The notes below the pieces were generated by a model, which ran no database searches, was not told the origin of the DNA, and worked only from the letters and a program-made list of their open reading frames with translations. The position numbers were made by a program, and so were the translations under genes. Below are positions 24,579-28,616 of a stretch of 34,896 bases of DNA, piece after piece (the first letter of the stretch is position 1; each line of letters begins with the position of its first letter). This DNA comes from a virus (Duplodnaviria; Heunggongvirae; Uroviricota; Caudoviricetes): positions 1 through 34,896 of IMG/VR virus record IMGVR_UViG_2548877009_000017; one strand, 5' to 3'.

Positions 24579-25955
24579 TCATACGTCAGCCCCTTGTGCA
24601 TATCGTCTGCCACGTGCAGCGGGTGCATTTGATGTTGTGCAAATATGTCTGGCTTCATCCTGGTCACATGCAACAAAGTGTCCGTTGCAGAACCGCTGGT
24701 AAACCGTACCAAGTGAGCCAAAACGGTTTTTCGTCACGATGATTTCAGCAAATGGCGCGGCGCTACTGTTCTCGTCATATACCGCTTCCCGATAGAGCAT
24801 GATGATTGAGTCTGCGTCCTGCTCAATGCTTCCTGAATCACGCAAATCTGCGTTTGTCGGGCGTTTGTTTGGTCGCTTCTCAACATCGCGCGAAAGCTGA
24901 CTCAGGGAGATAACAGGCGTTTTCAGGTCTTTCGCCATCGCCTTCAGGCTTCCGGAGATGTGAGCAATTGCGAGGTCGTTGCGATCTGCTTTCGGCTTCT
25001 CAATCAGGCCAAGATAATCCGCCATGATGAGTGAGAGGTTTGGATTTTCCTGTTTGTGCCGCTCTGCGATTGAGCGAATTTCTTCTACCGATAACCGCGA
25101 GGCATCGACTACCCATACATCCAAATCTGCAAGCTGACTCATGCCTTTAGCAACACGTGCCCAGCCCTCGTCATCCATCGATGCAGGATTTCGCAGTACG
25201 CTAACCGACATCCTCCCGGCGTTGGCAATGCTTCGCTCTGCGATCTGCAATGCGCTCATTTCCATCGAGAAAATCAACACTCCGCGCCGGACGTCAGAAC
25301 CAGGAATAACGCGGCTTGCAACGCCTTCGGCAATCTTCAGCGCCAGCTCGGTTTTCCCCATACCCGGACGAGCAGCGATAATCACCAGGTCTTCCGAGTT
25401 CATCCCTCCGGTGATGACATCAAGTTCTTCGATTCCGGTCTTCAGGGTATCTGACTCTTCTCCGTTCCTCAGACGCCTGTCAAGCGTGTCAGTGTAGTCA
25501 GTGATGATTTCCCCTAACCGTACAGGTTTAACCTCGTCACGGGGCTTTCTGATGGCTGAAAGACGCTTTACAAGCTCATCCATCGCCTGACTCGATGCGT
25601 CGATGGTTCCGCTCTGAATTGGTTCACGCATTTCATCCATGATTTCCAGCACCAGACGGCGGTGATAGTTATCCGCGACCATTCCGGCATATCCCTTCAG
25701 GTTTGCGGCGCTCGGGCAGTTTTTGCTGGTCATCAGGATTGACGTGAAATGCTCCTCGCCGCACTCCTCGGCAACCATCAGCGCGTCGATTAAGTTTCTG
25801 TTTCGCGCCTGCTTGCGGATAACCTCGAAGGCTTTCCGGTAGAGCGGAATTGAAAACGCTTCCGGCTCAAGCGTTGCCAGAACGTCGCTGGCGGTTGGTG
25901 TTAATCCACCAATCAGCAGGCCACCGATAACGCTCGCTTCGATATCCTGTCTCAT
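24579..25955 (-). CDS. Replicative DNA helicase, DnaB family (P22 gene 12 type)
   Basis: 458 aa; Walker A ARPGMGKT, DnaB-like N- and C-terminal domains; overlaps initiator gene stop. Confidence 0.9.
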
Positions 25956-26899
25956 GCAATCCCCCTGTCTGCAAACTTCCCTTCCCGTACACCCGTTAAC
26001 GAGTCTTCTCTCAGCAGGTAATCAAAATCTGCCGTCCAGCCCGTGTCGTTGTCTCCGAAGTAAAACGGCTTGGCCTGATGCACAAACGCCCTGACATACG
26101 CTCTGAAACCGTCCACGTTTGGCGTTTTCAGTTGCGGGATGATTTTCTTCAGGCGGCGTTTGCGTTTCTCGTTGACCGCAACAGCGTGTGGAAGTCTGTC
26201 ACCGACTTCGGTGTTGTAGGCGTTCAGGAAGGATTCGTAGTCGATTCGTTCTGCCTTGCGACGTTCAGGTTTAACCTGCCCATCGCCTCCCCCATTGGGG
26301 GGTAGGGGGGTATTATTTATATTCTTGTTAATACCTTCTTGTTCATGATGTGCGGTTGTTTGTGCGGCTTCATGTGCGCTTTCATGTGCGGCATGTACGC
26401 TGAAAGCCGCGCTATTGCTGGCTTCATCATGTGCGGCATCATGTGCGGTTGTTTGTGCGGCTTCATGTGCGGGTAAATTGTCCATTTTTTGAGCATATTC
26501 ATGGTAATTTGTGATGGTTATCACACGGCCTTTTTGCTTCTCTCCATCAATGGAGATCATCCCCTCTTTCACAAAAACCTGAAGCATCCGCTCAACCTGA
26601 TCACGGCTTGCTGGCTTGCCATGTCTGTCGCATAACTGAAGACCTAAATCAGCTGCTGTCACAACCAGTTGACCGGGTTGCAGATGCCATTCATGACCTT
26701 TGAAATTCGCTTTGTATGGCTTTCTGGCGGCATTCAGGAGAAGGTTTTCCCACAGGGTGCGAAGATAAACATCTTTCGCCCATGACTGTTTCAGAATGCT
26801 CCGGTACAACGGAATGTAACCAGTTTTCTGGTTCTCCATCCTGTTGCTCCTGCGCTCGTGTGCGGCGCTGAAATCGTAGATTTTTGCTGTATTGCTCAT
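25952..26899 (-). CDS. Replication initiator, lambda O / P22 gp18-like, carrying the origin internally
   Basis: N-terminus [10 protein letters not shown] resembles lambda O MTNTAKILNF; central His/Ala-rich repeat segment encoded by iterons; 315 aa. Confidence 0.8.
26343..26475. repeat. Origin iterons: two clusters of four to five 12-bp direct repeats (core TGTGCGG) inside the initiator gene, adjacent to an AT-rich tract
   Basis: TGTGCGG/TGTGCGC at 26349, 26361, 26373, 26385 and 26430, 26442, 26454, 26466 (12-bp phase); identical 31-mer atgtgcggttgtttgtgcggcttcatgtgcg at 26348-26378 and 26441-26471; AT-rich tattatttatattcttgttaata at about 26310-26335. Confidence 0.7.
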
Positions 26900-26901
26900 A
26901 A

Positions 26902-27174
26902 CTACCTGCCTTGACGAAAGACCTTAAGAACATCGTTAAACTGACTTACGGATATGTCTTCTTTGAGAAGCTTTTCCAGAAATGCGTTTGGAATGAACGT
27001 ATATCCCTCCTCTTTTGGTAGAGACGGGAGCAACGCCCTCGCCTCAGCCTTCAGAAGCTCAGTTCTGGCAACTTTCACAAAAGAGATTTGAGTTCTTTCA
27101 TCAATGGAACGAAGGAAGCGCAAACGCTTAGCTTCTTTGTGTGTATCAGGTGGATTAAAGCCTTTGTTTCGCAT
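26902..27174 (-). CDS. Hypothetical protein between cII and the initiator gene
   Basis: 90-aa ORF from ATG 27174 preceded by GAGGTAA; lambda has no gene at this position. Confidence 0.5.
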   Translation of the reverse strand: MRNKGFNPPDTHKEAKRLRFLRSIDERTQISFVKVARTELLKAEARALLPSLPKEEGYTFIPNAFLEKLLKEDISVSQFNDVLKVFRQGR

Positions 27175-27181
27175 ATAATTA

Positions 27182-27259
27182 CCTCGTTGGATGTTGTTAA
27201 AATTCCATTTGTATTTGATCAGAACGCTCGGTTGCCGCCGGGCGTTTTTTATTGGTGAG
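27182..27259 (+). ncRNA. oop: oop antisense RNA overlapping the 3' end of cII
   Basis: 3' portion ...tttgatcagaacgctcggttgccgccgggcgttttttatt matches remembered lambda oop RNA including its terminator hairpin and U-run; antisense to cII stop region; 5' end approximate. Confidence 0.6.
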
Positions 27260-27899: not shown

Positions 27900-28616
27900 A
27901 TGGAAAATAAAAAATCACTGACGACAGAACAGCTGGAAGACGCTAAGCGGCTTAAGGCTTTGTATGAGTCAAAAAAGAAAGAATTGGGAATAACCCAATA
28001 CTCAATCGCTGATGAACTGGGTATCACCCAAGGAGCGGTAGGGCATTATCTTAATGGCAGAAACGCGCTAAACGTTGAGGTTGCATCTGGTTTTGCACGA
28101 TTGTTGCAAGTCTCAATTGCTGATTTTAGCCAGTCAATTGCTGCCAAGGTTGCAGAACAGGCAGAAAGCCTTAAGAGCGATGCCAACGTAAGGTATGCAG
28201 GGGAATACAGAGCAGGAAAGAGGTATCCGGTGTTAAGCAGTATCCAGGCTGGCTCGTGGTGTGAAGCATGCGAACCATACACCATTAAAGACATAGATGT
28301 TTGGCTTGAGTCTGACGCGCATATTCAAGGTAATGCGTTCTGGCTTAAAGTGGAAGGTGATTCAATGACGGCACCGGTTGGGTTAAGCATTCCAGAGGGA
28401 ACATTCGTTCTTTTCGATACCGGAAGGGAGGCGATCAACGGCAGCTTGGTCATAGCAAAACTTTCTGACTCTAACGAAGCAACATTCAAGAAGCTGATAA
28501 TCGACGGCGGAAATAAATACCTCAAGGGACTTAACCCTGCATGGCCTCTCGTGCCAATCAATGGAAACTGCAAGATTATAGGCGTTGCAATTGAGACAAA
28601 ACTAAGGCTGGTTTGA
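27900..28616 (+). CDS. cI: CI repressor, lambda cI family (HTH N-domain plus LexA/S24-like autocleavage domain)
   Basis: MENKKSLTTEQLEDAKRLKALYESKKKELGITQ parallels lambda CI; C-terminal GDSM and KKL catalytic motifs; recognition-helix region differs from lambda; no SD upstream and TAGAAT -10 about 7 nt before the ATG suggests a leaderless pRM transcript. Confidence 0.9.
   Translation: MENKKSLTTEQLEDAKRLKALYESKKKELGITQYSIADELGITQGAVGHYLNGRNALNVEVASGFARLLQVSIADFSQSIAAKVAEQAESLKSDANVRYAGEYRAGKRYPVLSSIQAGSWCEACEPYTIKDIDVWLESDAHIQGNAFWLKVEGDSMTAPVGLSIPEGTFVLFDTGREAINGSLVIAKLSDSNEATFKKLIIDGGNKYLKGLNPAWPLVPINGNCKIIGVAIETKLRLV

What the first reader, a model, noticed from the sequence alone, without database searches (positions are those of the whole stretch)
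26288..26480. Replication origin embedded in the O-like initiator gene: two clusters of 12-bp iterons plus AT-rich tract
Eight to nine copies of a TGTGCGG-containing 12-bp unit occur in two clusters that are themselves a duplicated 31-mer, followed in the gene's direction by an AT-rich stretch. This is the lambda ori architecture (iterons then AT-rich region inside O) but with a different repeat unit, implying a distinct initiator-iteron specificity. A C5/G6 tract pair (cccccattggggggtagggggg, 26288-26312) lies alongside.
Basis: partly seen in the sequence, partly recalled or inferred. Interest (0 to 1): 0.55.

Follow-up and report, generated by a model that had tools for sequence, protein, structure and literature searches.

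The report
Phage replication origin inside initiator gene
The repeats are real and are very probably the binding sites for the phage's own replication-starter protein, lying inside that protein's gene as in phage lambda; this is an ordinary kind of feature, but with short one-directional repeats that differ from lambda's.

Summary
Window 26345-26473 (gene strand is minus) holds eight 12-bp units, nCCGCACAtnnn. They form two clusters of four separated by a 33-bp spacer. A 34-bp tract of 79% A+T follows (26313-26346), then a C/G tract. All of this lies in the predicted disordered linker of a 315-aa lambda-O-family initiator (Pfam Phage_rep_O). A DnaB-type helicase gene lies downstream. The window is about 99.5% identical to phage CUS-3.

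Forty-four diverse homologous loci share the layout: 3+3 or 4+4 units at a strict 12-bp period, a fixed 45-bp step between clusters, then an AT tract. Synonymous codon positions inside the units are almost frozen: His CAT:CAC is 241:1 in units and 101:90 elsewhere, and Ala is GCR 244:0. So selection acts on the DNA, not on the peptide.

The unit sequence tracks the predicted recognition helix of the initiator:
- SRD pairs with CCGCACAT.
- SRH pairs with CCGCGCAT.
- SPQ pairs with CCGAT.
- KQV pairs with GGTAACAAA.

This is a further member of a known kind (ori-lambda, P22 gene 18, the putative phage L ori). It differs from lambda in having short direct repeats without dyad symmetry. An unexplained spacer element is conserved across all classes. 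Interest is modest.

The parts
25952..26899 (-). O-type replication initiator gene (315 aa) that contains the whole feature
   Evidence: ORF. Pfam PF04492 Phage_rep_O matches aa 20-132 at E 3e-15. It is 99.5% identical in DNA to phage CUS-3 gene O.
26492..26839 (-). N-terminal winged-helix DNA-binding domain (aa 21-136). The predicted recognition helix is aa 99-111 (26567-26605), with Asp100.
   Evidence: AlphaFold model: helix 82-88, helix 99-111 and beta-hairpin 115-129, with pLDDT 64-83. Foldseek hits are all winged-helix proteins but weak. Asp/His at this position covaries with iteron base 6.
26426..26473 (-). Iteron cluster 1: four 12-bp units, CCCGCACATGAA GCCGCACAAACA ACCGCACATGAT GCCGCACATGAT
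   Evidence: The same phased units occur in 44 homologous loci.
26393..26425 (-). 33-bp central spacer, GAAGCCAGCAATAGCGCGGCTTTCAGCGTACAT, which carries an element conserved in all iteron classes
   Evidence: the step between clusters is fixed at 45 bp, the consensus is AGYRMTGGCGCGGCYT, and synonymous sites are fixed. The element is also present in phage L.
26345..26392 (-). Iteron cluster 2: four 12-bp units, GCCGCACATGAA AGCGCACATGAA GCCGCACAAACA ACCGCACATCAT
26313..26346 (-). AT-rich tract, the putative DNA-unwinding element. It is A-rich on the coding strand and holds two AACAAGAA copies.
   Evidence: 79% A+T, in the top 0.65% of the window. It is conserved as HEQEGNNKN / EQNKKLLEQE in homologues. 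Its position matches the lambda AT-rich tract.
26289..26310 (-). C6-TA-C6-AAT-G5 tract encoding TPLPPNGG. It marks the start of the P22-type C-terminal domain and a mosaic junction.
   Evidence: it is present with some C-domain types only. The hairpin is no better than shuffled sequence.
25952..26311 (-). C-terminal domain (aa 197-315), 97% identical to that of phages with unrelated N-domains and iterons (mEp213, HK544, 2851) and 60% identical to P22 gp18
   Evidence: tblastn; sequences.
24579..25955 (-). DnaB-type replicative helicase gene, overlapping the end of the initiator gene
   Evidence: Pfam DnaB_C at 1.4e-77 and DnaB at 1.8e-13. Annotated as a replicative DNA helicase in CUS-3.

Best explanation
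This is the replication origin of a CUS-3-like (P22-like, lambdoid) phage, embedded in the gene of its own O-type initiator.

Proposed mechanism:
1. The N-terminal winged-helix domain of the initiator binds the eight CCGCACAT units head-to-tail at 12-bp intervals, in two groups of four, and builds a nucleoprotein complex.
2. The adjacent 34-bp AT-rich tract is opened.
3. The initiator's C-terminal domain brings in the phage's own DnaB-type helicase, encoded just downstream.

The stretch of protein encoded by the origin is a disordered linker whose amino-acid sequence is largely free. That freedom is what lets the DNA carry the signal.

Shown here:
- the anatomy;
- DNA-level constraint on the units;
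- covariation of the unit sequence with the predicted recognition helix;
- modular exchange of N-domain plus iterons against the C-domain.

Inferred by analogy with lambda and P22:
- binding itself;
- unwinding at the AT tract;
- helicase recruitment;
- dependence on rightward transcription.
For: 1. Initiator family and layout. Phage_rep_O matches aa 20-132. Repeats occupy gene nt 427-555 and the AT tract nt 554-587, between the N- and C-domains. In lambda the iterons occupy nt 349-433 and the AT tract about nt 435-470.

2. Conservation of the architecture. All 44 diverse loci from Enterobacterales (N-domain 67-87% identical) have n units at a 12-bp period, a 45-bp step, n more units (n = 3 or 4), and then an AT tract.

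3. DNA-level selection.
- His codons are CAT:CAC 241:1 in units and 101:90 elsewhere (p 1e-37).
- Ala codons are GCR:GCY 244:0 in units and 384:565 elsewhere (p 6e-81).
- The third base of the preceding four-fold codon is C 282:0, against 958:2442 elsewhere.
- Among 63 near-identical genes, polymorphism falls on unit positions 1 and 10-12 and on the spacer, not on the core.

4. Specificity.
- Base 6 of the unit is a synonymous Ala position. It is A in every unit in 20 of 21 such loci (5 of 6 in the other) and G in 21 of 23 (one A in each of the other two).
- It matches Asp versus His at the start of the predicted recognition helix 44/44 times.
- More distant initiators with other helices have other cores in the same layout: SPQ with CCGAT, KQV with GGTAACAAA, SAKAV with GTCGAA.

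5. The peptides encoded by the arrays are unrelated between classes (AHEA, PDEP, EVTN, SVQG). The linker is predicted disordered, with pLDDT 26-36.

6. Mosaicism. The N-domain plus iterons occur with lambda-type C-domains and a P-type loader in Klebsiella and Yersinia phages. The same C-domain occurs with other N-domains and iterons in mEp213 and others.

7. Precedent. A rep_origin is annotated at the equivalent place in P22 gene 18 and in phage L gene 18 (PMC8022706).
Against: - There is no experimental datum for this phage or for any initiator of this subfamily: no binding, no mapping of initiation.
- The units lack the dyad symmetry of lambda iterons, so the stoichiometry and geometry of the complex cannot be carried over from lambda.
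- The Asp/His against A/G covariation rests on only about two independent changes on the N-domain tree.
- Natural variants with one, three or four clusters exist, so the two-cluster form is not obligatory. Alternatively, some prophages may be defective.
- The structure model is of moderate confidence, and fold matches are not significant.
Confidence: 0.8

Rival explanations
1. The repeats are initiator-binding sites, but their main role is regulatory rather than the place where replication starts. Examples would be autoregulation of the gene by a transcription roadblock, or copy control by handcuffing. In that case the origin would lie elsewhere.
For: The DNA-level constraint and the helix/iteron covariation prove a sequence-specific ligand, not origin firing. 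Cluster number varies from one to four among close relatives, as expected for a titrating array.
Against: An AT-rich tract always abuts the array, as at ori-lambda. No other tandem iteron array turned up in the 34.9-kb window. The position is homologous to the experimentally defined ori of lambda and the annotated ori of P22.
Confidence: 0.08
2. The repeats exist for the protein: a periodic Ala-His-rich linker (for example metal binding or spacing), with the DNA periodicity as a by-product.
For: The array translates to a regular (A/x)AHxx repeat. Ala-His is kept in all 44 loci of the closest subfamily.
Against: Synonymous positions are fixed. Third-codon positions of variable neighbouring residues (P, A, T, G, S) are always C. 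Other classes encode unrelated peptides in the same DNA layout. Phage L has an 11-bp period that cannot keep a peptide repeat. The linker is predicted disordered.
Confidence: 0.04
3. The array is a slippage- and recombination-prone mosaic joint between the two initiator domains, with no function of its own.
For: It is the most polymorphic part of the gene. Expansions and contractions occur in 93-bp steps. Domain exchange breakpoints lie at its edges.
Against: Neutral repeats would not keep invariant cores next to free flanks. They would not keep a fixed 45-bp step in 44 of 44 loci. They would not match the recognition helix.
Confidence: 0.04

Closest known systems
ori-lambda inside gene O of phage lambda, and the six-iteron variants of Stx phages 933W and P27
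   Same: The initiator is of the Phage_rep_O family. The origin sits in the middle of the initiator gene. Repeated sites are followed in the direction of transcription by an A-rich AT tract, then by the C-terminal domain that couples to the helicase system. The gene order cro-cII-O-helicase function is the same (PMC7466680).
   Different: Lambda has four 18-bp iterons with internal dyad symmetry, 20-24 bp apart, bound by O dimers. Here there are eight 12-bp direct units without dyad symmetry, in two clusters around a conserved spacer. The downstream partner is a DnaB-type helicase, not a P-type loader. The N-domain is only distantly related to that of lambda O.
Putative origin in gene 18 of Salmonella phage L (GenBank MW013503 rep_origin; Zaworski et al. 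2020, PMC8022706)
   Same: Short direct repeats in a 3+3 arrangement flank a spacer carrying the same ACCAGTAATGRCGCGGCT element. An AT-rich tract follows, inside an O-like gene upstream of a DnaB-like helicase.
   Different: The unit is TGTCCAACGGA at an 11-bp period, not CCGCACAT at 12 bp. The N-domain is too distant to be found by tblastn from this family. The C-domain is of a different type. The phage L origin is itself only predicted.
P22 gene 18 origin (annotated rep_origin; paired with gene 12 helicase)
   Same: The C-terminal domain is 60% identical. Both have the TPLPPxGG C5/G5 tract after an AT-rich tract, and a DnaB-type helicase downstream.
   Different: The P22 N-domain is lambda-like, and its roughly 20-bp repeats have dyad character (GGTAAA-N3-TTTACC). 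They are unrelated to CCGCACAT (PMC8022706).
Eru2-type replication module of Stx phages (273-aa Eru2A plus 458-aa DnaB helicase; PMC8044961)
   Same: The C-terminal domain and helicase are the same (mEp213/2851-type hits, 97% over aa 190-315). The exact gene of this window also occurs in 48 or more Stx2a phages.
   Different: The N-domain and iterons differ. No origin was described in that work.

Membership tests
Lambdoid-phage origin embedded in an O-type initiator gene | Initiator with an N-terminal Phage_rep_O DNA-binding domain | tested here: met
   PF04492 matches aa 20-132, E 3e-15, 56.9 bits against a cut-off of 28.7.
Lambdoid-phage origin embedded in an O-type initiator gene | Array of repeated sites in the middle of the initiator's own coding sequence, between the N- and C-domains | tested here: met
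   Units occupy gene nt 427-555 of 948. The linker aa 137-215 is predicted disordered. In lambda the iterons occupy nt 349-433 of 900.
Lambdoid-phage origin embedded in an O-type initiator gene | AT-rich tract directly after the repeats in the direction of transcription | tested here: met
   26313-26346 is 79% A+T and A-rich on the coding strand. It is conserved in homologues.
Lambdoid-phage origin embedded in an O-type initiator gene | Iterons of about 18-19 bp with internal dyad symmetry (sites for O dimers) | tested here: not met
   No inverted repeats were found in 26200-26560. The units are 12-bp direct repeats, all in one orientation.
Lambdoid-phage origin embedded in an O-type initiator gene | Iteron sequence specific to, and inherited together with, the N-terminal domain, while the C-domain is exchangeable | tested here: met
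   The core changes with the recognition-helix motif. The mosaic structure is shown.
Lambdoid-phage origin embedded in an O-type initiator gene | Initiator binds the repeats and replication starts there | not testable with these tools
   Needs EMSA or footprinting and minireplicon or marker-frequency experiments.
Phage L gene 18-type array (short direct repeats, two clusters) | Two clusters of 3-4 direct units flanking a spacer with the conserved AGYRMTGRCGCGGCT element, then an AT tract | tested here: met
   Window. Phage L.
Phage L gene 18-type array (short direct repeats, two clusters) | 11-bp period and TGTCCAACGGA unit | tested here: not met
   The period here is 12 bp and the unit CCGCACAT. 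This is the same architecture with a different specificity class.
Iteron-plasmid origins (RepA/pi/RepE type) | Iterons of about 22 bp outside the rep gene, with a two-winged-helix Rep initiator | tested here: not met
   The units are 12 bp and lie inside the gene. There is no sequence match to any PDB chain and only weak single winged-helix fold matches. Plasmid-database hits are whole phage genomes.

The most novel reading that the evidence does not exclude
This subfamily of O-type initiators may build an origin complex differently from lambda. Protomers would bind head-to-tail on non-symmetric sites every 12 bp (11 bp in phage L), in two blocks. The blocks would be held in fixed register (45-bp step) around a spacer element that is conserved whatever the iteron specificity. 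That spacer would then be read by something other than the specificity helix, such as a host factor or a conserved part of the initiator.

The family would also offer a natural one-residue/one-base recognition pair: Asp100 with A and His with G at unit position 6, which is a silent codon position.
Probability: 0.35. Interest if true: 0.5.

Novelty: new member of a known kind. Interest (0 to 1): 0.35.

Why it matters
The practical value is in annotation. This exact initiator gene is very common in E. coli and Salmonella prophages, with protein clusters of hundreds to more than a thousand members. It occurs in CUS-3-like P22-type phages and in at least 48 Stx2a-converting phages, and none of the records I looked at marks an origin there.

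The comparative set assembled here gives several things that can be used directly.
- A simple rule for finding such origins: 3-4 units at a 12-bp period, a 45-bp step, 3-4 more units, then an AT tract.
- A table pairing recognition-helix motifs with iteron cores, which can be tested by swaps.
- A clean example of a coding region in which silent sites are fixed by an overlapping DNA signal.

It does not change how lambdoid replication is understood.

Tried and rejected
- Ninth repeat copy (AGCGTACATGCC in the spacer). It is out of phase and not conserved, so I rejected it.
- Lone CCGCACA at 26855-26866 near the 5' end of the gene. The same leader occurs in a homologue with different iterons, so it is probably chance.
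- C5/G6 tract as a general origin element. It is present in only 28 of 84 distinct arrays and travels with the C-domain type. The hairpin is no better than shuffles, z -0.85.
- PDB sequence search. No hit.
- Foldseek against the PDB. Only weak winged-helix matches, E at or above 0.05. These are usable as consistency, not as evidence.
- Plasmid database, searched for a natural minimal replicon. Hits are 36-41-kb circular phage genomes or fragments, which are uninformative.
- Protein search from a TGTCCAA-type homologue, to link phage L by sequence. Phage L was not hit. The link to phage L rests on architecture only.
- Literature search for the motif itself (CCGCACAT / ATGTGCGG / CCGCACA). Nothing relevant. 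Searches for iterons with CUS-3, P22-like or Stx phages found no description of this array.
- Whole-window tandem-repeat scan. No second iteron-like array.

Full report
**1. What is in the sequence**

The stretch lies in a 948-nt ORF on the minus strand (25952-26899, 315 aa). Read on the gene strand, there are eight 12-bp units.
- Cluster 1 (26473-26426): CCCGCACATGAA GCCGCACAAACA ACCGCACATGAT GCCGCACATGAT.
- A 33-bp spacer follows (26425-26393).
- Cluster 2 (26392-26345): GCCGCACATGAA AGCGCACATGAA GCCGCACAAACA ACCGCACATCAT.

Tandem Repeats Finder reports period 12 for both clusters. The clusters share an exact 31-mer at 26348 and 26441.

One-mismatch matches to ATGTGCGG occur at chance frequency in the window as a whole: 30 found, 31 expected. 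Eight of them fall in 130 bp on one strand, where 0.06 are expected.

It is out of phase and is not conserved in relatives.

Directly after cluster 2, in the direction of the gene, comes a 34-bp tract of 79% A+T (26346-26313). It is A-rich on the coding strand. Only 0.65% of 34-mers in the window are as AT-rich. Then comes CCCCCCTACCCCCCAATGGGGG (26310-26289).

No inverted repeat was found in the region.

**2. The gene and its neighbours**

- The protein matches Pfam Phage_rep_O over aa 20-132 (E 3e-15).
- The next gene downstream (24579-25955) is a DnaB-type helicase (DnaB_C, 1.4e-77).
- Upstream lies a cII homologue.
- The gene is 99.5% identical to gene O of the P22-like coliphage CUS-3, where the order is cI / cro-cII-O-helicase-nin.
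- It is at least 98% identical to genes in HF4s, JEP4, Gally and about 48 Stx2a-converting phages.

An AlphaFold model built on 16 homologues has mean pLDDT 59.7. The N-domain scores 64-83 and shows a winged-helix layout: helix 82-88, helix 99-111 and beta-hairpin 115-129. There is a helical C-domain (aa 221-306) and a disordered linker (aa 137-215, pLDDT 26-36).

The repeats, the AT tract and the C/G tract all encode this linker.

Foldseek returns only weak hits, all to winged-helix proteins such as MarR, CodY and ArsR types (E at or above 0.05). No PDB chain matches by sequence.

**3. Comparison with lambda**

In lambda the four annotated iterons occupy gene nt 349-433 of O. The AT-rich tract occupies about nt 435-470. 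The C-domain starts right after it with SSENSGESSD.

Here the units occupy nt 427-555 and the AT tract nt 554-587. The C-domain starts at aa 197.

The order and relative position are the same. The difference is in the sites. Lambda has 18-bp units with internal dyad symmetry, spaced 20-24 bp apart. This window has 12-bp direct repeats.

**4. Is the periodicity a property of the DNA or of the peptide?**

I collected 80 near-identical loci from IMG/VR. I also collected 47 loci from one-genome-per-species bacterial assemblies. These come from Enterobacter, Citrobacter, Xenorhabdus, Yersinia, Brenneria, Pantoea, Proteus and others, with N-domains 67-87% identical.

All 44 usable loci (41 of these genome loci plus the window, a Klebsiella phage and a Yersinia phage) have the same plan:
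- three or four units exactly four codons apart;
- a step of exactly 15 codons to the next cluster;
- the same number of units again;
- then HHEQEGNNNN, which is the AT tract.

The unit consensus is nCCGCRCATnnn. Synonymous positions are almost invariant inside the units:

| Position | In units | Elsewhere in the same genes | p |
|---|---|---|---|
| His codon, CAT:CAC | 241:1 | 101:90 | 1e-37 |
| Ala codon, GCR:GCY | 244:0 | 384:565 | 6e-81 |
| Third base of the preceding four-fold codon (Pro, Ala, Gly, Thr or Ser), C:other | 282:0 | 958:2442 | 3e-144 |

Units were picked by a 6-of-8 match to the consensus. Because phasing is strict, only about four phased positions were missed, so ascertainment bias is small.

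Among 63 distinct near-identical genes, the origin region is the most polymorphic part of the gene. The variation sits at unit positions 1 and 10-12 and in the spacer. Positions 5-8 are nearly invariant.

More distant relatives keep the DNA layout but encode unrelated peptides, such as PDEPCDKPSD, EVTNEVTKEVTN and SVQGSVQPFVQP.

The repeats are therefore selected as DNA.

**5. Does the repeat match the initiator?**

Within the closest subfamily there are two unit types.
- CCGCACAT occurs in 21 loci, including the window.
- CCGCGCAT (with CCGAGCAT variants) occurs in 23 loci.

The distinguishing base is a silent Ala position. It is uniform within 41 of the 44 loci; the other three each have a single deviating unit.

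It agrees 44 out of 44 times with Asp versus His in the motif SR[D/H]xVERML. It also agrees with Ala/Pro versus Ser/Thr in VT[A/S]ADLG. These residues are Asp100, at the start of the predicted recognition helix, and residue 82, at the start of the preceding helix.

A caution applies. On a neighbour-joining tree of the N-domains, built without those columns, the type changes only twice. One of the two changes is a Yersinia locus (L116) that clusters among A-type loci yet carries His and G-type units.

Deeper in the family the pairing continues:

| Recognition-helix motif | Unit core |
|---|---|
| SPQAVTRM | nCCGATnAAcc |
| xKQVRDML | GAGGTAACAAA |
| SAKAVERML | GTCGAA |
| PVKEVQRL | TGTCCAA |

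tblastn shows the module structure.
- Aa 3-143 recur at 74-81% identity in Klebsiella and Yersinia phages. There they are joined to a lambda-type C-domain and a P-type loader, and they have CCGCACAT units.
- Aa 190-315 recur at 97% identity in mEp213, HK544, 2851 and others. Those phages have other N-domains and other repeats.

This is the pattern expected if the N-domain reads the repeats and the C-domain serves the helicase system.

**6. Mechanism proposed**

- Shown: the anatomy, the DNA-level constraint, the helix/iteron pairing and the modularity.
- Inferred from lambda and P22 (PMC7466680, PMC8022706): the initiator binds the units and forms a higher-order complex. The adjacent AT tract melts. 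The C-domain recruits the phage DnaB-type helicase.

The sites are asymmetric, all point the same way and lie 12 bp apart. Head-to-tail binding is therefore more likely than the dimer-per-palindrome mode of lambda. This last point is inference only.

**7. Things not explained**

- The 33-bp spacer carries an element, consensus RAA-SCC-AGY-RMT-GGC-GCG-GCY-TYR, that is conserved across all iteron classes. Its silent positions are fixed: GCG in 67 of 71 arrays and GGC in 65 of 71.
- The same element is present in phage L gene 18, whose units differ and have an 11-bp period.
- The element is independent of iteron specificity. Its ligand, if any, is unknown.
- The cluster-to-cluster step is fixed at 45 bp.

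**8. What the C5/G6 tract is**

It encodes TPLPPNGG at the start of the P22-type C-domain. A C5-N(1-5)-G5 inverted repeat occurs in 28 of 84 distinct arrays. It is replaced by GAGAATTC...TCTGA in lambda-type C-domains (13 arrays). It is absent in 43 arrays.

The hairpin is no more stable than shuffled sequence.

It is best read as part of the C-domain module and a mosaic joint. P22's annotated rep_origin reaches into the equivalent sequence without covering all of it, so a role at the origin is not excluded.

**9. Relation to what is known**

An origin inside the O gene, with iterons specific to the N-domain, is textbook for lambda. It is also annotated for P22.

For phage L, Zaworski et al. 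(PMC8022706) noted six imprecise 11-bp repeats in gene 18 as the likely origin. I find that phage L has the same plan of 3 units, spacer, 3 units and AT tract.

I found no description of the CCGCACAT array, of its 12-bp two-cluster plan or of the spacer element. This covers the searchable literature and the CUS-3, Stx and other records I inspected.

The feature is thus a further member of a known kind. Its site architecture differs from the lambda paradigm.

**10. Verdict**

My confidence that this is the phage's origin is about 0.8. Interest is modest (0.35). The most novel reading not excluded is a distinct origin-complex architecture with a specificity-independent central element.

Noticed in passing
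window 26393-26425; also L193 (phage L) gene nt 431-463 and 71 distinct homologous arrays: The spacer between the two iteron clusters holds an element (AGYRMTGGCGCGGCYT) that is conserved across all iteron specificity classes. Its silent codon positions are fixed, and the cluster-to-cluster step is fixed at 45 bp. Its ligand and function are unknown.
   Followed up: partly
proteins P0001, P0010, P0018, P0042, P0045, P0050 (relatives of window 25952-26899): Near-identical initiator genes carry one, two, three or four iteron clusters, with protein lengths from 284 to 357 aa. Expansions come in 93-bp steps (five units plus the spacer), which suggests unequal crossing-over. The two-cluster form is by far the most common.
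   Followed up: partly
window 26855-26866: A lone extra CCGCACA lies near the 5' end of the initiator gene, upstream of the alternative start Met21 that many database entries use. The same leader occurs in a homologue with different iterons, so it is probably chance.
   Followed up: partly
L009, L036, L139 (equivalent to window about 26300-26310): Some metagenomic and prophage copies have C5 instead of C6 in the ACCCCCCTA tract. This frameshifts the initiator to about 205 aa. It could be homopolymer sequencing error or real slippage.
   Followed up: no
L008 (GenBank OR850084.1): A 2.7-kb contig labelled 'Staphylococcus phage SA 1298 Kay' encodes an enterobacterial O-type initiator with the P22-type C-domain. 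The host label is almost certainly wrong.
   Followed up: no
window 28099-28143 and 7712-7753: Two short 21-bp two-copy tandem repeats were reported by Tandem Repeats Finder. The first lies inside the cI-like repressor ORF 27900-28616. Neither was examined.
   Followed up: no
window 26902-27196: About 300 bp separate the cII homologue from the initiator gene, with no convincing annotated gene in CUS-3. In lambda and P22 the equivalent region holds the oop promoter and terminator. This was not examined here.
   Followed up: no
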